A DNA stretch of 40,181 nucleotides from a virus: IMG/VR virus record IMGVR_UViG_3300020036_002545; one strand, 5' to 3'. The notes under the pieces are model-generated. The model was not told the origin of the DNA, searched no databases, and was given only the letters and a program-made list of their open reading frames with translations. Shown here in pieces: positions 8,482-35,203 of the stretch (positions are counted from its first letter, which is position 1; every line of letters starts with the position of its first letter). Position numbers and translations under genes: made by a program.

Positions 8482-8699
8482 TGAAAACTATCGGACATAT
8501 CGTAAAGTTAGACCCTACTAAGAAATATCTAATGCTTCTAGATATTAAAGAGATGAGAAAAGACGACATGAGAGAACTCGCAAACCTTATTAACTACATG
8601 AAAGACGGCGAACTCGTCACGGTTGCTCTAAATGATTTTGGAAGTGTTAAATTTGTCGAACTTAATGGTGAAATAGAAATAGGGTACGAAAAAATATAA
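8481..8699 (+). CDS. Hypothetical protein between the co-chaperonin and the chaperonin
   Basis: 72-aa ORF; TAATG overlaps on both sides. Confidence 0.5.
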   Translation: MKTIGHIVKLDPTKKYLMLLDIKEMRKDDMRELANLINYMKDGELVTVALNDFGSVKFVELNGEIEIGYEKI

Positions 8700-10252
8700 T
8701 GAAAAAGATACTTTTTGGTAACAACGGCAGTAAGCGTATTCTAAAAGGCATAAACATCACAACGGACGCAGTAGCCCCTACGCTCGGTGTAGTTGGAAAG
8801 CGTGCAATTCTCGACGCTGGACATCTTGACCCTATCTTTGCAGACGATGGCGCAAAGATACTCAACATGATTGACATCGAAGACCGTTGGGAACAGATGG
8901 GCAACCGTCTCATGCGTAAGATTGTCAACAAGATGCACCACAAGGCTGGCTCTGGTCGTACAACATCTGCCGTCCTTGCTCGTGCATTCGCTAATGAGGC
9001 ATATAAGGCTATAAAAAGAGGCACAGACCAGCGTGAAGTTGTAGAACGCCTAGAGAATGGATTGAAGAAGACCATCGAAATCCTCTCTACAATGAAGCGT
9101 GAAGTAAAAGACGAGGACGTTAAACGCCTTGCTCTCACTGAATCACTCGATGAAGACGTTGCAAACATAATCGCTAAGGCAGTAAAAGAACTCGGTAAAA
9201 ACGGGGTTATTTCTGTTGAAGAAAGCAACAAGGTAGAGCTTACGCTTGAAACCGTAAAGGGTATGCGTATCAAGAAAGGGCTTATCTCAGAGCATTTCGT
9301 CAATGACCCAGAGAAGAACCGTTGTGTATTGCAGAACCCGTATATCCTTATAGCCGACCGCCGTATCGCAACGAACTTTCAGATAAAGAACATTCTCGAA
9401 GCTATGGTTGCACAGGGTAGAACTGACTTGCTCGTCGTTGCTATGGACATAGAGGGAGAAGCTCTTGCATCGCTCATAATCAACCATCAGCGCAGAGCTA
9501 TGAATATAGCTTGCGTCCAAGCTCCGTACAAAGGACAGGCTCAGAGAGATTTCCTTGTTGACCTAGCTACTCTCACAGGTGGAACTGTTGTTAGTGAAGA
9601 AGCTGGAATGTTCCTCGATAAAGTAGGACTAGAAGTTCTTGGACAGGCTAACCAAATCACTGTAACCAAGGATGAGACGATTGTCTCTGGTGGCAAGGCT
9701 GATGAACAGGCTCTAAAAGACCGTATAATCGTCGTAGAGCAGTTTATTGAGCAGACTGCGGAGTATGACCGTAAAGTCGCACAAGAACGCTTGGCAGGGC
9801 TTACAAGCGGCGTAGGAGTCATTAGAGTTGGTGCGTTCACTGTAGACGAACTCCGTTTGAAGCGTGACAAGATTGAGGACGCTGTAAATTCGACTATGTT
9901 GTCCCTTGATGAGGGTATAGTAGCTGGTGGTGGAAGCTCACTTGTCCGTGTTGCAGGAATGATTGAAGACCCTATGTTTAAGCGTGCGCTTCTTGCACCG
10001 TTCAAGCAGATGGAAAAGAACGCAGGAATGAATCAAGGCTTTTGGAAGAAGAACACAGTCAAACAGATACAGGACAATAAGGATATAGGCTATGACTTTA
10101 AGTCTAAAAAGATAGTCAATATGTTCCGAGCAGGTATCATTGACCCTTACAAGGTAGAGCGTATAGCACTTGAAACAGCTATCTCTATCGCGTCTATCTT
10201 TGCTTCCCTCGATGTGTTCTGTGCGGAGTTCCCTGAAAAACAAGATAACTAA
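8699..10252 (+). CDS. groEL: GroEL-like group I chaperonin (Cpn60)
   Basis: Matches to GroEL:
- KILFGNNGSKRILKGINITTDAVAPTLGVVGKRAIL ~ [36 protein letters not shown]
- AGSGRTTSAVLA ~ AGDGTTTATVLA
- EGIVAGGG motif present
517 aa. Confidence 0.85.
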   Translation: MKKILFGNNGSKRILKGINITTDAVAPTLGVVGKRAILDAGHLDPIFADDGAKILNMIDIEDRWEQMGNRLMRKIVNKMHHKAGSGRTTSAVLARAFANEAYKAIKRGTDQREVVERLENGLKKTIEILSTMKREVKDEDVKRLALTESLDEDVANIIAKAVKELGKNGVISVEESNKVELTLETVKGMRIKKGLISEHFVNDPEKNRCVLQNPYILIADRRIATNFQIKNILEAMVAQGRTDLLVVAMDIEGEALASLIINHQRRAMNIACVQAPYKGQAQRDFLVDLATLTGGTVVSEEAGMFLDKVGLEVLGQANQITVTKDETIVSGGKADEQALKDRIIVVEQFIEQTAEYDRKVAQERLAGLTSGVGVIRVGAFTVDELRLKRDKIEDAVNSTMLSLDEGIVAGGGSSLVRVAGMIEDPMFKRALLAPFKQMEKNAGMNQGFWKKNTVKQIQDNKDIGYDFKSKKIVNMFRAGIIDPYKVERIALETAISIASIFASLDVFCAEFPEKQDN

Positions 10253-16785: not shown

Positions 16786-17517
16786 GTGTCCATAGTGACT
16801 ATAAGTAATAGATTAAAAAACGTGGTCAGAATTTCATTTCAAGACGTAAAACAGCCAACTACATCACAGGGACAGATGGGTCTTGGTACAGTCGCACAGA
16901 CTCCAGACGGAGCAACATGGACATACATCAAGGCAGCAGAAGCTCTTAGTGCATATAACGTAGTTGTGCCAGACACAGAGGTTCAGGTTGAAACTGTTAG
17001 CTCATCTGCTAACAACCTCGGACAGATTGTGTACATCACTGAGTCAGGCGCAAGCTGGACAGTAGGTCAGTACGCAGGTTGTTACGGTATCGTAGATGAC
17101 GGTACTGGAGTAGGACAGGTCTTCAAGGTACAGGACAACACTGTTGATACTTTGATACTCTTCCCAGCGTACGCGCTCACTACAGCACTCGCAGTAGCAT
17201 CTTCTGACATCACTCTTACATTCCCTAACGTCGTTGATAAGTCTGCTATCACTAGCAAGGCACAACAGGCTTCAGGTATAACACAGGTAGCATTTGCTTC
17301 TGGTGAATACGGTTGGGTTATGAAGACAGGTACAGGAGGCGTAAAGGCAGGTGAAGTACTCACAGTATCGCTTTCATACGTCACAGGTGACGACACTGAA
17401 GGTCAGGTATTGAAGGGTACTACAGCAAAGGGTGAGTTCGACGAACAGTCTCTCGGTTATGTCCGCGTAGCAAACGCAGGAGCAGACCAGACAACTCTCG
17501 TTTACGTTAACCTTTAA
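16786..17517 (+). CDS. Head decoration-like protein (internally duplicated)
   Basis: GTG start in the ORF track; alternative ATG at 16876. Two similar halves with G..GIV.D..G.GQV.KV and G..GWVMKTGTGGVKAGEV patterns, as in small capsid decoration proteins. Confidence 0.45.
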   Translation: MSIVTISNRLKNVVRISFQDVKQPTTSQGQMGLGTVAQTPDGATWTYIKAAEALSAYNVVVPDTEVQVETVSSSANNLGQIVYITESGASWTVGQYAGCYGIVDDGTGVGQVFKVQDNTVDTLILFPAYALTTALAVASSDITLTFPNVVDKSAITSKAQQASGITQVAFASGEYGWVMKTGTGGVKAGEVLTVSLSYVTGDDTEGQVLKGTTAKGEFDEQSLGYVRVANAGADQTTLVYVNL

Positions 17518-17522
17518 TGGTT

Positions 17523-17586
17523 GGCTTTGCCTCTTTACGGGGGCAAGCCCCAGTCATTAACTGGCAAGGGAAAAACGAAGCCCTTG
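17523..17586 (+). other. Three consecutive GC-rich hairpins after the capsid genes
   Basis: The hairpins are ggctttgcc/ggcaagcc, ccagt/actgg and caaggg/cccttg. No strong T-tract, so this is a likely mRNA stabiliser or weak terminator. Confidence 0.5.
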
Positions 17587-17608
17587 ATTAACAAATAGTT
17601 ATTTAATT

Positions 17609-18136
17609 ATGGATAACAATATAAATGATTTCAAAGTTGTTACGTTGAAAAACATTTCATCTTTTGACTTCACACCAGCCTTTGGCGCGATGTTCAATAG
17701 TCGCCCTATCTTCGGAAAGGCAAAAGCAGGATGTATCGCAGTTGGGGAAGAACTCATATTCCCGTATCACGTTGGGCATAGACTTGCCATTAACTTGGCT
17801 AAAAAGATGCTTATTGAAAAGGACGCTGCTCCAAAATATGGAGAGGGCGACCCTGCAAGAAGCTCAGCACTGTTTGGAGACGAGCAGATAAACACTCTCG
17901 TCGGTCAGATTCTTATAAGTGAGTACCAGGAGGAAAAGCCAATTCAGGAGACTGAAACGGATATGCTCATGCGAAAGTTTGAGGAACTGAATAGACAGGT
18001 AGAAGCTATGAAAGGTGAAAAGATTTCACCTGAAGGCTTCAAAGACAAGCAAGAGGTCATTGCTGAACTTGAGAAACGAGGAATAGTCCACGACAAGCGC
18101 AAGAACAAAAGTGAATTAGAAAAACTTCTCGCCTAA
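17609..18136 (+). CDS. Hypothetical protein with C-terminal HeH/SAP-like motif
   Basis: KQEVIAELEKRGIVHDKRKNKSELEKLL resembles the helix-extension-helix motif common in phage proteins. Confidence 0.5.
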   Translation: MDNNINDFKVVTLKNISSFDFTPAFGAMFNSRPIFGKAKAGCIAVGEELIFPYHVGHRLAINLAKKMLIEKDAAPKYGEGDPARSSALFGDEQINTLVGQILISEYQEEKPIQETETDMLMRKFEELNRQVEAMKGEKISPEGFKDKQEVIAELEKRGIVHDKRKNKSELEKLLA

Positions 18137-18142
18137 AAGCGA

Positions 18143-18187
18143 AGCTATGCTGGCGGCAGTTTATAGGGTTCGATTCCTTACATAGCT
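18143..18187 (+). ncRNA. tRNA-like minihelix (acceptor stem + T-arm only)
   Basis: Perfect 7-bp acceptor agctatg/catagct. T-arm taggg-TTCGATT-cctta. Only a 14-nt connector (ctg-gcgg-cag hairpin) replaces the D and anticodon arms. It ends 1 nt before ATG 18189. Confidence 0.5.
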
Positions 18188-18188
18188 T

Positions 18189-18719
18189 ATGGAAACAGTA
18201 AACAAAGAAAAAATGGAGAGTTTGAGACTGTTAGCGGAAACTACTATTAAGATTTCCGAGGCAAAAAACACACTCCAAGAACTCAAAAGCAAGCAAGAAG
18301 AATACTTGACACTCCGAGAGGATATGGCACAAAAGCATATTCAAAAGATACTCGAAGAAAGCAAGGAACTTCTTGAAAATACGCATAGCAACTACACGAA
18401 AGTAAATGTCTTCTGCCGAGAAGTAATGAGCTACGCAGACGGACTCAGTGAGATGCAAGTAGGTGTGCAAAACCTGTTAGAGACATTTAAAAACAAAGCA
18501 ATTCAATGGGAGAAAAACGCAGAACTGCAAACCATTGAACTATCGCACCAGAAAAAGCTAGTTGAACAGGACAAGGAAAATCTAAAGGAGTGGGAAAAGC
18601 GAATAGAGAAAGATAAAAAAAATATAGAGAAAGAAAAAGCACTGATTGAGAGCCGACAGAAAGCACTAGAGACAAGTTACAAGCTAGAAAAAGACCTATG
18701 GAACAAATTGACCGCATAA
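18189..18719 (+). CDS. Coiled-coil K/E-rich protein
   Basis: 176 aa, heptad-like E/K/L-rich throughout. Confidence 0.55.
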   Translation: METVNKEKMESLRLLAETTIKISEAKNTLQELKSKQEEYLTLREDMAQKHIQKILEESKELLENTHSNYTKVNVFCREVMSYADGLSEMQVGVQNLLETFKNKAIQWEKNAELQTIELSHQKKLVEQDKENLKEWEKRIEKDKKNIEKEKALIESRQKALETSYKLEKDLWNKLTA

Positions 18720-19216
18720 CAATAGAAAACGACACATTTGCCCTAAAGAGAGAGTACAAACACGCTCTTGAGAAACTTTCTAGTATCAAACAGGAGACTG
18801 TTGAGCTTGTTGACTCTAACACAAAGCTCGAAGTGTCAATAAAAGAAAAGAGGGACGAGCTTACACAAATCACAAACGACATTTCAAAGGAAAAACTCGA
18901 CTGGACACAGCATCGTCACGCTGAACTTGTTGAAATTGATGCAAAAAAGGACGAAATTGCGAGTATTCTAAAGAAAGATGCAGAACTCAAAAAGAAAGAG
19001 GCAGAAATCGACGCAAAAATACAGAAAAACACGACAGTATTGAACGAAAACAGACAGCTAGAGCTTAAACTTAAAGGTGACACTACTGCTCTCGAAGTAA
19101 AAAATCGGGAAGTAGAGAACAACCGAGCAACACTTGCAAAAGAAGTGCAGGATTTTGAAACGAAAAAAGTCGATTTCAAGACAAAATTGTCAGAATTAGT
19201 AAAAATATATGTCTAA
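18698..19216 (+). CDS. Coiled-coil K/E-rich protein
   Basis: 172 aa; 22-nt overlap with the previous gene. Confidence 0.55.
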   Translation: MEQIDRITIENDTFALKREYKHALEKLSSIKQETVELVDSNTKLEVSIKEKRDELTQITNDISKEKLDWTQHRHAELVEIDAKKDEIASILKKDAELKKKEAEIDAKIQKNTTVLNENRQLELKLKGDTTALEVKNREVENNRATLAKEVQDFETKKVDFKTKLSELVKIYV

Positions 19217-19496
19217 CGAGGTTATCGAGCGCGACCAGAATAGCCGTACTGTAGGAGCTGGTGTCGGCAACGACGCAGACCAGGATATTACAATGCTTAG
19301 AGTAGACCCTGTTAGCAAATATCTCCTTGTTGAAATAGCGGTAGAGACGAGTGGTAGTGCTACAGCTTCACAGATAGCCAGCCGCGACCAGAATAGCCGT
19401 ACAGTGTGCATGGCATGGAATGAAGACGACGACGAATTACAAGAAATACTAACCGACGAAAATGGCAATCTCTTGTGTGATGTCATATTCGTATAA
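19209..19496 (+). CDS. Small protein carrying the fibre N-terminal adaptor motif (1.5 copies)
   Basis: MSNEVIERDQNSRTVGAGVGNDADQDITMLRVDPVSKYLLVE, then a second IASRDQNSRTV. The exact 20-nt DNA repeat cgcgaccagaatagccgtac occurs at 19230 and 19383. Confidence 0.6.
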   Translation: MSNEVIERDQNSRTVGAGVGNDADQDITMLRVDPVSKYLLVEIAVETSGSATASQIASRDQNSRTVCMAWNEDDDELQEILTDENGNLLCDVIFV

Positions 19497-19500
19497 AATT

Positions 19501-33286: not shown

Positions 33287-33358
33287 CGGAGAATAGCTTA
33301 ATGGTGAAGCAATCGTCTTATACACGATAGACTGATGGTTCAAGTCCATCTTCTCCGA
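33287..33358 (+). tRNA. tRNA-Ile (anticodon UAU, reads AUA)
   Basis: Hand-folded cloverleaf:
- acceptor cggagaa/ttctccg
- D arm gctt-aatggtg-aagc
- anticodon arm atcgt-cTTATac-acgat
- T arm gatgg-TTCAAGT-ccatc
No encoded CCA. Confidence 0.8.
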
Positions 33359-33360
33359 CA

Positions 33361-34116
33361 ATGAACAAAATCATACAGGGTGACTGTTTAGAAGTAATGA
33401 AAAAAATAGGAGATAATTCCATAGATTTAACAGTAACCTCTCCACCGTATGATAATTTACGAGACTATAACGGTTATACTTTTGACTTCAAAAATATTGC
33501 AAAAGAACTTTTTAGAGTAACAAAGCAAGGTGGTGTAGTTGTTTGGATTGTTGGTGATGCAACAATTAAAGGAAGTGAAACAGGAACATCATTTAAACAA
33601 GCACTTTACTTTAAGGAGATTGGATTTAATTTGCACGATACAATGATATGGAAAAAGCAGACTTTTACTGATACAGGGTCGCTCCAGTGTAGATACGGTG
33701 GAGTATTTGAATATATGTTTATTTTGTCAAAAGGAAAAATAAAAACATTTAACCCCATAAAAGACAGATTAAATAAAAAACCGAATATTAAAAAAAACGG
33801 AAGTATTAGACAAAAAGATGGTACAACAAGACCTCAATCATCTTTAGGAAAAAAAGCAAACATTTACGGTCAGAGATTTAATGTTTGGGAAATAAACACG
33901 GAAATTTCAAATAGTAATAGATTTCACCCAGCACAATTTTCTGAAAAACTAGCTGAAGACCACATATTATCTTGGAGTAACAAAGGCGACATCGTACTTG
34001 ACCCGATGGCAGGAAGTGGGACAACATTAAAAATGGCAAAGAAAAACGATAGAAATTATATTGGAATAGAAATATCGGCAGAGTACATAAAAATTATTGA
34101 AGAAAGACTAAAATAG
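33361..34116 (+). CDS. N6-adenine/N4-cytosine DNA methyltransferase (beta class)
   Basis: Motif IV TSPPY near the N-terminus and motif I DPMAGSGTT near the C-terminus. Confidence 0.8.
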   Translation: MNKIIQGDCLEVMKKIGDNSIDLTVTSPPYDNLRDYNGYTFDFKNIAKELFRVTKQGGVVVWIVGDATIKGSETGTSFKQALYFKEIGFNLHDTMIWKKQTFTDTGSLQCRYGGVFEYMFILSKGKIKTFNPIKDRLNKKPNIKKNGSIRQKDGTTRPQSSLGKKANIYGQRFNVWEINTEISNSNRFHPAQFSEKLAEDHILSWSNKGDIVLDPMAGSGTTLKMAKKNDRNYIGIEISAEYIKIIEERLK

Positions 34117-34244: not shown

Positions 34245-34358
34245 TGGGGAGTGGTAGAGTGGCAATACAAAAATGTGCAAGATGGCCGTGAGTAGTATTT
34301 ATACGAAAGCAATAAGCTACACCTTTTTCCTCGCAAGGTTCGATTCCTTGCCTCCCAA
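34245..34358 (+). ncRNA. tRNA-like element with expanded anticodon domain (114 nt)
   Basis: Acceptor tggggag/cctccca has 6 of 7 pairs. D arm is gta-gagtggcaa-tac. The T arm caagg-TTCGATT-ccttg is canonical. A 65-nt insert, including a GAAA-capped hairpin at 34292-34320, replaces a normal anticodon arm. Confidence 0.4.
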
Positions 34359-34435
34359 CACCGCAGTCTGTATGACTGCCGTACTTACAAGCACGATACG
34401 CTTGTACATGCCCGTTGCTTCGGGTTTTCTAAACA

Positions 34436-34919: not shown

Positions 34920-34992
34920 GGGTAAATAGCTCAACAGACAGAGCAACGGACTTCTAAGCCGTAGGTTGTAGGTGCAATTCCTACTTTACCCT
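34920..34992 (+). tRNA. tRNA-Arg (anticodon UCU, reads AGA)
   Basis: Hand-folded cloverleaf:
- acceptor gggtaaa/tttaccc
- D arm gctc-aacagaca-gagc
- anticodon arm acgga-cTTCTaa-gccgt (one A-G mismatch)
- T arm gtagg-TGCAATT-cctac
The elbow is atypical. Confidence 0.7.
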
Positions 34993-34993
34993 C

Positions 34994-35203
34994 ATGTATA
35001 TACCAAAAGACAAACAATGGTTTTGTGATAGAATAGGTAAAACTATTTATCGTGATACACTAAAAAAGTGTTGCGAAACGTGTGACCATGTAGCTACAAA
35101 CGGTTTAATAGTTACAGACAAAGACCACGCTGATTATCTTGCTATGATAGACATGGATTTTGGCGCAGAGGGTATTTATTCAAATTACAGAGATACTTTA
35201 TAG
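34994..35203 (+). CDS. Hypothetical Cys-containing protein
   Basis: 69-aa ORF; the ATG starts 1 nt after the tRNA-Arg end. Confidence 0.5.
   Translation: MYIPKDKQWFCDRIGKTIYRDTLKKCCETCDHVATNGLIVTDKDHADYLAMIDMDFGAEGIYSNYRDTL

What the first reader, a model, noticed from the sequence alone, without database searches (positions are those of the whole stretch)
18143..18191. tRNA-like minihelix inside the structural operon, ending 1 nt before a start codon
This 45-nt element has a perfect 7-bp acceptor stem (agctatg/catagct). It also has a T arm (taggg-TTCGATT-cctta). It has no D arm or anticodon arm.

It sits in the 52-nt gap between genes 17609..18136 and 18189..18719. An acceptor/T minihelix is the minimal substrate for RNase P, RNase Z and the CCA-adding enzyme.

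The placement suggests tRNA-punctuation-style processing of the late polycistronic mRNA. That would yield a leaderless downstream mRNA. It is also the kind of 3' tRNA fragment seen in attP cores, but I could recognise no integrase.
Basis: partly seen in the sequence, partly recalled or inferred. Interest (0 to 1): 0.62.

Follow-up and report, generated by a model that had tools for sequence, protein, structure and literature searches.

The report
tRNA-mimic punctuation mark in phage mRNA
A 45-base RNA fold that copies the top half of a tRNA sits between two late genes of this uncultivated 40-kb phage and of about 65 relatives; selection clearly maintains it, and it probably tells host tRNA-trimming enzymes where to cut the message, although no cutting has been shown.

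Summary

The same element follows the homologue of gene 17609-18136 in 56 of 82 distinct loci by covariance model, and in about 84% by manual parse. It occurs once per genome, always on the + strand.
- All 14 base pairs show compensatory changes, and 98% of cells are paired against 30-46% in slid controls.
- There are 24 G-U pairs and no A-C pairs, so it acts as + strand RNA.
- T-loop positions 54, 56 and 58 (U, C, A in the tRNA-type loops), a D-loop G and the discriminator U are invariant or nearly so in the seed set.
- Four of five complete relatives carry it without any tRNA gene. It is therefore not a tRNA relic or an attP remnant.

A new feature is the leader after the stop codon. It pairs with the acceptor 5' strand as an "anti-acceptor" hairpin, so the fold is bistable.

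RNase P RNA is present in the candidate Saccharibacteria hosts, but canonical RNase Z was not found there.

Rfam has no such family. Earlier notes of this scan describe similar minihelices on other phage DNA.

The parts
17609..18136 (+). Upstream conserved late gene (175 aa, function unknown). Its stop codon TAA is at 18134-18136.
   Evidence: ORF. 358 homologues, many on ~40-kb contigs. No Pfam, PDB or fold match.
18137..18142 (+). Leader, or anti-acceptor strand. AGC 18138-18140 can pair with GCT 18144-18146 (loop GAA), competing with the acceptor stem. It is weak in this phage (-0.6 kcal/mol) and reaches 5-7 bp in many relatives.
   Evidence: Real leader/acceptor pairs give mean MFE -3.65, against -1.66 +/- 0.20 when permuted.
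18143..18149 (+). Acceptor stem, 5' strand (AGCTATG).
   Evidence: All 7 pairs covary.
18150..18159 (+). D-like mini hairpin CTG-GCGG-CAG. The loop GG corresponds to G18/G19 of tRNA.
   Evidence: A G in this loop is nearly invariant.
18160..18163 (+). Linker TTTA, in place of the anticodon arm and variable region. It is 3-6 nt in most relatives and up to about 10 nt in a few.
18164..18180 (+). T arm TAGGG-TTCGATT-CCTTA: a 5-bp stem with one G-U and a 7-nt T loop with U54, C56 and A58.
   Evidence: The 5 pairs covary. C56 and A58 are invariant and U54 nearly so.
18181..18187 (+). Acceptor stem, 3' strand (CATAGCT), stacked directly on the T stem to give 7+5 = 12 bp.
18188..18188 (+). Discriminator-position U. 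It is T in 48 of 53 relatives.
18189..18719 (+). Downstream late gene (176 aa). Its ATG directly follows the discriminator. The N-terminus is conserved across the family, although the protein evolves fast.

Best explanation
The element is a phage-encoded, anticodon-less tRNA mimic transcribed as part of the late + strand message.

It reproduces the parts of a tRNA that tRNA-processing enzymes measure:
- a 7-bp acceptor stem stacked on a 5-bp T stem;
- a true T loop;
- a small D-like loop whose G can close the elbow;
- a discriminator.

Proposed mechanism (inferred):
1. Host RNase P cuts at the 5' edge, at 18142/18143.
2. A 3' tRNA endonuclease cuts at or just after the discriminator, at 18188/18189.
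3. This separates the upstream and downstream cistrons and releases a ~46-nt stable RNA.
4. The downstream ORF is left with a 0-2-nt leader.

A conserved anti-acceptor hairpin starts at or just after the upstream stop codon and competes for the acceptor 5' strand. The tRNA fold, and hence cutting, is therefore conditional, most plausibly on ribosomes terminating at that stop codon.

Shown: conservation, covariation, strand, tRNA geometry, the bistable design and the fixed position.
Inferred: recognition by RNase P and a 3' nuclease, cleavage, and the switch trigger.
For: - Conservation: 56 covariance-model hits in 82 distinct loci, all on the + strand and all directly after the homologue of gene 17609-18136. 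The window has one hit. Four of five complete relatives have one hit each; the fifth carries the divergent GGCAGGA-loop form that R1 misses.
- Covariation: 14 of 14 pairs have double changes. 98.2-98.3% of cells are paired, against 30-46% with slid partners. The covariation score is 1.03-1.05, against 0.25-0.30 shuffled.
- Strand: 24 G-U and 0 A-C pairs, which points to + strand RNA.
- Fixed tRNA geometry in every parsed member: 7 bp + 5 bp + a 7-nt loop. C56 and A58 are invariant. U54, a D-loop G and the discriminator U are nearly invariant.
- Distance from acceptor end to ATG: 1 nt in 14, 2 nt in 17, 3 nt in 7 and 5-9 nt in 15 relatives.
- Real tRNA-Ile and tRNA-Arg of this phage have their discriminators 2 and 1 nt before the next ATG. 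Neither encodes CCA, so their own maturation must cut there.
- Relatives without the element have the two genes tightly coupled or joined by a Shine-Dalgarno-type spacer. The element therefore adds something beyond spacing.
- RNase P RNA is present in both small MAGs that carry related phage contigs. Their tRNA genes are mostly CCA-less, 14 of 18, so a 3' cutting or trimming activity plus CCA addition must exist.
- Anti-acceptor hairpin.
- Precedent: t-elements are cut by RNase P and RNase Z in plant mitochondria (PMC1920247).
Against: - No RNA-end data.
- Canonical RNase Z (TIGR02651) was over the cut-off in 0 of 41 genomes of the candidate host class. Only weak metallo-beta-lactamase hits were found.
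- The host assignment itself rests on binning, sample type and a 29% capsid match.
- There is no encoded 3' CCA to aid bacterial RNase P.
- 15 of 53 members have 5-9 nt before the ATG, so an exact leaderless end is not universal.
- The one tRNA found in a distant relative is not next to an ATG.
- The anti-acceptor hairpin is not needed by a simple processing model.
- Position 55 of the T loop is G in most members.
Confidence: 0.5

Rival explanations
1. A translational switch or coupling device that is not cleaved. The compact fold brings the upstream stop codon (5-10 nt before the stem) and the downstream ATG (1-3 nt after it) together. It occludes the ATG when folded. The anti-acceptor hairpin, melted by each terminating ribosome, sets the balance. 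Translation of the downstream gene is thereby tied, positively or negatively, to translation of the upstream gene in a phage that lacks Shine-Dalgarno sites.
For: - Almost no gene in the window has a Shine-Dalgarno motif, and most genes are coupled within 0-5 nt.
- Both flanking distances are short and conserved.
- The anti-acceptor hairpin begins at the last base of the stop codon or 0-2 nt after it. It covaries with the acceptor strand.
- The two states differ by a median of only -1.9 kcal/mol.
- Canonical RNase Z was not found in the candidate host class.
Against: - Any hairpin could occlude or juxtapose codons. This model does not explain why exact tRNA geometry (7+5 bp, 7-nt T loop, U54/C56/A58, elbow G, discriminator U) is kept across the whole family.
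- Relatives that lost the element simply abut the two genes. Juxtaposition alone would therefore add nothing.
Confidence: 0.25
2. The excised ~46-nt RNA is itself the product. It would be a stable tRNA-shaped small RNA acting in trans. It might be a decoy or sponge for a host factor that binds the acceptor/T-arm half of tRNAs, such as a tRNA-targeting defence toxin, a nucleotidyltransferase or a modification enzyme. Its place between two genes would merely be where it is transcribed.
For: - The strict tRNA top-half mimicry includes elbow nucleotides.
- There is one copy in each complete genome that R1 matches.
- It is retained in relatives that carry no tRNA genes.
Against: - The tight, conserved contact with both the stop codon and the start codon, and the anti-acceptor hairpin tied to the stop codon, point to a role in cis.
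- There are no identity elements that I could relate to a given synthetase or toxin.
- Thirteen related lineages lost it without any visible replacement.
Confidence: 0.12
3. A 3'-end protector of the upstream message. Only the 3' side is cut, or transcripts are trimmed back to the fold. The tRNA-like structure, possibly CCA-tailed, then blocks 3' exonucleases. Together with the conserved three-hairpin element upstream at 17518-17608, it would make gene 17609-18136 a long-lived message.
For: - Gene 17609-18136 is bracketed by two conserved structured RNAs.
- tRNA-like 3' ends are known to receive C/A additions in plant mitochondria (PMC1920247).
Against: - This does not explain why the ATG abuts the fold.
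- It does not explain the anti-acceptor hairpin.
- The abundance of the upstream protein is unknown, because no function was found.
Confidence: 0.1
4. A decayed tRNA gene or an attP core: a relic with no function of its own.
For: - The T loop GGTTCGATTCC is tRNA-like.
- The phage carries tRNA genes elsewhere.
Against: - Compensatory changes at all 14 pairs across proteins down to ~45% identity.
- Fixed position, one per genome.
- Present in relatives without tRNA genes.
- Both acceptor strands are present.
- No integrase was seen.
- Not found in 150 genomes of the candidate host class other than on the phage contig.
Confidence: 0.01

Closest known systems
t-elements of plant mitochondria (Forner et al. 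2007, PMC1920247)
   Same: - They are tRNA-like folds with the T-arm motif GGTTCRANYCC embedded in mRNA precursors next to coding regions.
- They are proposed, and partly shown, to direct RNase P and RNase Z cuts that create mRNA 5' and 3' ends.
- The excised element can be stable and receive C/A additions.
   Different: - This element is in a bacteriophage and is much smaller, ~45 nt with no anticodon arm at all.
- It is a single, position-fixed family with a conserved anti-acceptor hairpin.
- Most members have T loop UGCAAGC rather than UUCRANY.
- No transcript ends have been mapped.
mascRNA / menRNA tRNA-like elements of MALAT1 and NEAT1 (Rfam RF01684)
   Same: This is the only Rfam model that matches, with aligned acceptor, small D and T arms. 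By my own knowledge it is a tRNA mimic inside a longer transcript that is cut by RNase P and RNase Z.
   Different: - The score of 31.9 is below the gathering score of 42.5.
- The anticodon-stem positions are deleted in the alignment.
- Those are vertebrate nuclear lncRNAs, so there is no homology, only a shared tRNA likeness.
Acceptor/T-arm minihelix model substrates of RNase P, RNase Z and the CCA-adding enzyme (own knowledge)
   Same: A 12-bp coaxial acceptor/T helix with a 7-nt T loop and a discriminator, the minimal shape these enzymes accept.
   Different: - This is a natural, conserved element with an added D-like hairpin that can complete the elbow.
- It has no 3' CCA.
- It is embedded in an mRNA with a competing 5' leader.
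Mitochondrial tRNA punctuation (Ojala-Attardi model) and RNase P cleavage in E. coli operon spacers (own knowledge)
   Same: tRNA-processing enzymes are used to cut polycistronic messages between cistrons.
   Different: Punctuation uses functional tRNAs, and the E. coli spacer sites are not tRNA-shaped conserved families. Here a dedicated non-decoding mimic is kept, even in phages that have no tRNA genes.
tRNA-like minihelix families noted earlier in this scan on other phage DNA (e1-3458674, e1-3687872, e1-3599947, e1-2907311, e1-3723027, e1-3500684)
   Same: They are anticodon-less acceptor/T-arm mimics between phage genes that covary and are absent from Rfam (AI notes, not checked by me).
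   Different: - Those sit mostly in early operons and often in several copies per genome.
- This one is a single copy in the late structural block of a different phage family, probably infecting Patescibacteria.
- It carries a D-like hairpin and an anti-acceptor leader.
- No sequence relation was found.

Membership tests
tRNA (RF00005) | Cloverleaf with anticodon arm, detected by tRNA finders | tested here: not met
   ARAGORN tRNAs elsewhere and none here. The Rfam tRNA model has no match at 18143-18187 even at E <= 10. Only 14 nt lie between the acceptor strand and the T arm.
mascRNA-menRNA (RF01684) | Score at or above the curated gathering threshold | tested here: not met
   31.9 bits against a 42.5 gathering score, E = 1.3e-4, with the anticodon-stem columns deleted.
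t-element (tRNA-like mRNA processing signal) | tRNA-like fold with a conserved T-arm motif inside an mRNA precursor, next to a coding region | tested here: met
   GGTTCGATTCC is at 18167-18177. The acceptor/T fold is conserved with covariation. It lies 6 nt after a stop codon and 1 nt before a start codon.
t-element (tRNA-like mRNA processing signal) | Transcript 5'/3' ends coincide with the borders of the element | not testable with these tools
t-element (tRNA-like mRNA processing signal) | Cleavage by RNase P and RNase Z | not testable with these tools
   This needs enzyme assays. Indirect evidence is that RNase P RNA is present in candidate host MAGs, while RNase Z TIGR02651 was over the cut-off in 0 of 41 genomes of that class.
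RNase P minihelix substrate | 12-bp acceptor/T coaxial helix with a 7-nt T loop | tested here: met
   7 + 5 bp with no intervening base and a 7-nt loop in the window and in all 53 parsed relatives. The parse searched for exactly this geometry, so its uniformity is partly by construction; the covariance-model alignment agrees.
RNase P minihelix substrate | 3' RCCA that pairs with the P15 loop of bacterial RNase P RNA | tested here: not met
   The acceptor is followed by T-ATG. The phage's own tRNAs also lack an encoded CCA, as do 14 of 18 tRNA genes of the candidate host MAG.
attP core derived from a host tRNA gene | Identity to the 3' part of a host tRNA gene together with an integrase in the phage | tested here: not met
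   No integrase was found among the ORFs scanned. The element has both acceptor strands and evolves by compensatory change. There was no match in 150 genomes of the candidate host class. The search for identity to a host tRNA was limited to that sample.
tmRNA tRNA-like domain | Acceptor and T arm flanking a tag reading frame and pseudoknots, detected by ARAGORN or Rfam | tested here: not met
   No tmRNA was called and there was no Rfam tmRNA match. The two halves are contiguous.

The most novel reading that the evidence does not exclude
A translation-gated tRNA-mimic switch. Each ribosome that terminates on the upstream gene melts the anti-acceptor hairpin. The 45-nt tRNA top-half then snaps shut, and only then do host tRNA-processing enzymes cut out the mimic. 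This frees a leaderless message for the next gene, so mRNA punctuation is licensed by translation of the preceding cistron. A still bolder variant is that the elbow of the mimic holds the post-termination ribosome, through its tRNA-elbow contacts, for re-initiation at the abutting AUG.
Probability: 0.15. Interest if true: 0.85.

Novelty: new variant of a known kind. Interest (0 to 1): 0.68.

Why it matters
If host tRNA-processing enzymes really cut here, phages of ultra-small bacteria use dedicated non-decoding tRNA mimics to punctuate their late messages.
- This strategy is so far documented for organelles and eukaryotic lncRNAs, not for phages.
- It would explain how cistrons with very different copy-number needs are uncoupled in genomes without Shine-Dalgarno sites.
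- It would give a compact, portable RNA-processing tag.

The covarying anti-acceptor hairpin adds a testable two-state design that links the fold to upstream translation.

Independently of function, this is a well-supported new structured-RNA family. It has about 65 distinct members and all pairs covary, so it could be added to RNA databases and used to annotate uncultivated phages.

Tried and rejected
Searches that found nothing:
- Megablast of 17000-19500 against deposited phages.
- tblastn of the upstream protein against deposited phages. The family is wholly uncultivated.
- The downstream protein as a probe for viral contigs. An exact 33-mer of the element also found nothing there. I therefore used the well-conserved upstream protein.
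- Model R1 on 13 kb around the capsid gene of TM7 phage MG269973.

Method problems:
- MAFFT on all 51 elements shifted the 5' strand by one column in many rows. I counted pairs on a gap-free 16-sequence subset (A3) and on the model-made alignment (A4).

Function of the upstream protein:
- No Pfam match, no PDB sequence match, and no fold match for a pLDDT-72 model.

Ideas considered and rejected:
- T4 gene-60-style ribosome bypass of the 52-nt gap. The last sense codon and the putative landing codon do not match consistently among relatives. Landing at GCT 18185-18187 would be out of frame with the downstream ORF. Relatives without the element encode two separate proteins.
- attP remnant or tRNA pseudogene (see rival explanations).
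- Intrinsic terminator: there is no U tract.
- A DNA-level hairpin: 24 G-U against 0 A-C pairs argues for RNA of the + strand.
- Absence of a Shine-Dalgarno site as an argument for leaderless translation. I dropped this because the whole phage lacks such sites.

Full report
**What is in the window.** The sequence at 18134-18191 reads TAA AAGCGA AGCTATG CTGGCGGCAG TTTA TAGGG TTCGATT CCTTA CATAGCT T ATG.
- The 7-bp acceptor stem is perfect.
- The T stem has 5 pairs, one of them G-U.
- The T loop is the canonical UUCGAUU.
- The stem ends one base before the ATG of ORF 18189-18719.
- The stop codon of ORF 17609-18136 lies 6 nt before the stem.
- RNAfold recovers this fold.
- The energy is unremarkable (z = -0.53).
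- ARAGORN finds three tRNAs elsewhere and nothing here.
- Of 4227 Rfam families only the vertebrate mascRNA model matches, below threshold and with its anticodon stem deleted.
- The 11-mer GGTTCGATTCC occurs three times in the window against 0.4 expected.

**Conservation.** The downstream protein has only 3 relatives in the protein collection. The upstream protein has 358, many on ~40-kb contigs.
- I fetched loci through that protein from assemblies, viral contigs, metagenomes and genomes.
- I then read the sequence after its stop codon in 129 loci, 82 of them distinct.
- In most, a gap of about 50-60 nt holds the same architecture with different letters. An example is L016: AGCCGTG-GCGTTCAGACGTGAAA-AGTGG-TGCAAGC-CCACA-CATGGCT-T-ATG.
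- A covariance model built from 16 gap-free sequences (A3, R1) found 56 matches in 289 kb. All are on the + strand, one per locus, and all lie directly after the conserved gene. The window has one match.
- About ten further loci carry divergent versions that the model misses, with a GGCAGGN loop or a longer linker. Thirteen lack the element. So about 84% of untruncated distinct loci have it.
- Four of five complete relatives have one copy each by R1; the fifth carries the divergent GGCAGGA-loop form. Four of the five have no tRNA gene at all.

**Covariation.**
- On the gap-free alignment, 98.2% of cells pair and all 14 pairs show changes on both sides.
- The covariation score is 1.05, against 0.30 +/- 0.04 shuffled. 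Slid partners give 33-45% pairing.
- On 54 distinct model-aligned sequences the figures are 98.3%, 14 of 14 and 1.03 against 0.25. That alignment leans towards the model.
- My seed sequences were chosen for pairing, so the percentage paired is inflated by selection. The number of double changes at a fixed syntenic place is not.
- The stems hold 24 G-U and no A-C pairs, so selection acts on RNA of the + strand.

**Anatomy as a tRNA top half.**
- Every parsed member keeps 7 bp, then 5 bp with no base between them, and a 7-nt loop.
- T-loop C56 and A58 are invariant, and U54 is nearly so. The common loop is UGCAAGC (34 of 53). The window's clade has UUCGAYU.
- A G in the D-like loop is nearly invariant.
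- The base after the stem is U in 48 of 53.
- D-like loops ending in GG go with U55 loops. Loops ending in AGA go with G55 loops. This fits an 18-55 / 19-56 elbow contact but may be shared ancestry.
- These are the features by which RNase P, 3' tRNA nucleases and the CCA-adding enzyme recognise tRNA (established knowledge).

The 5-10 nt between the stop codon and the acceptor 5' strand are complementary to the first 3-7 nt of that strand, often around a GAAA loop.
- Examples are L016 ACGGC-GAAA-GCCGT and L048 CTAGC-TAAAAA-GCTAG. The window has only AGC-GAA-GCT.
- The real mean folding energy is -3.65 kcal/mol. Leaders and acceptor strands permuted among sequences give -1.66 +/- 0.20.
- The leader is not a copy of the acceptor 3' strand. 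In several cases the two differ, yet both pair through G-U. Both helices are therefore selected at the RNA level.
- The hairpin starts at the last base of the stop codon or just after it, so a terminating ribosome must melt it.
- The tRNA-like state is favoured by a median of only 1.9 kcal/mol. It is the more stable state in 69% of members.

**Context.**
- The window is a phage with terminase, capsid and tail-type genes, all on the + strand.
- It has almost no Shine-Dalgarno motifs, and most genes are coupled within 0-5 nt. The missing ribosome-binding site before 18189 is therefore not informative.
- Real tRNA-Ile and tRNA-Arg lack an encoded CCA. Their discriminators lie 2 and 1 nt before the ATG of the next ORF.
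- Relatives without the element abut the two genes or use a Shine-Dalgarno-type spacer.
- The gap upstream of gene 17609 holds another conserved three-hairpin RNA.

**Host and enzymes.** The hints point to Patescibacteria/Saccharibacteria:
- a 29% capsid match to a TM7 phage that also has a Cpn60 gene;
- many relatives from 0.1-um groundwater fractions;
- one relative binned in a Saccharibacteria MAG.

In that MAG and its class:
- RNase P RNA is present;
- 14 of 18 tRNA genes lack CCA;
- RNase Z TIGR02651 is over the cut-off in 0 of 41 genomes;
- the mimic is not found in 150 genomes apart from the phage contig.

**Reading.** The exact tRNA geometry, kept over deep divergence, argues for recognition by tRNA-handling enzymes.
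- The best-supported mechanism is intercistronic cutting in the manner of plant-mitochondrial t-elements (PMC1920247).
- The 3' cut would leave a 0-2-nt leader in most members.
- The anti-acceptor hairpin would make the fold conditional on upstream translation.
- Cleavage is inferred only.
- Rival readings are an uncleaved coupling switch, a trans-acting tRNA-shaped RNA and a 3' protector of the upstream message.
- A tRNA relic or attP core is excluded.

**Novelty.**
- No Rfam family matches.
- I found no phage report in the held literature.
- Earlier notes of this scan describe similar, unrelated-in-sequence minihelix families in other phages. I did not test them.

Noticed in passing
window 17518-17608: The 91-nt gap upstream of gene 17609-18136 folds into three consecutive hairpins (MFE -29.9 kcal/mol, z = -3.0). 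The fold is conserved in 11 relatives, with compensatory changes at 14 of 19 pairs. The third loop (GGGAAAGGCGAAGCCC) is nearly invariant. The gene is thus bracketed by two conserved structured RNAs.
   Followed up: partly
window 33287-33363 and 34920-34996: Real tRNA-Ile (discriminator 33358) and tRNA-Arg (discriminator 34992) lack an encoded CCA. They lie 2 and 1 nt before the ATG of the next ORF (33361 and 34994). This is the same layout as the mimic.
   Followed up: partly
window 34246-34360: A second GGTTCGATTCC at 34337-34347 lies in a tRNA-like stretch (GGGGAG ... CTCCCAACACC) that neither ARAGORN nor the Rfam tRNA model calls. It overlaps a mechanical 84-aa ORF.
   Followed up: no
whole window: Almost no gene has a Shine-Dalgarno motif. 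Upstream regions are A/T-rich, and most neighbouring genes have stop and start within 0-5 nt or overlapping.
   Followed up: partly
G008-G048 (class of the Saccharibacteria-labelled MAG holding L136): Canonical RNase Z (TIGR02651) was over the cut-off in 0 of 41 sampled genomes, although 14 of 18 tRNA genes of G008 lack an encoded CCA. The 3' tRNA-maturation nuclease of this group therefore seems to be something else. Recurrent ~297-aa, ~460-aa and ~600-aa metallo-beta-lactamase-fold ORFs give weak hits.
   Followed up: no
L031, L110, L112, L113, L114, L115 (relatives): A sub-family of the element has T loop GGCAGGC/GGCAGGA in place of UGCAAGC. Positions 54 and 58 change together from U...A to G...G. 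This may be covariation of the T loop's internal reverse-Hoogsteen pair.
   Followed up: no
L158 (TM7 phage MG269973.1) 9002-10444: The nearest deposited phage by capsid (29% identity) also carries a Cpn60/GroEL gene, like window 8699-10252. It has a different gene order after the capsid gene and no match to the element model.
   Followed up: no
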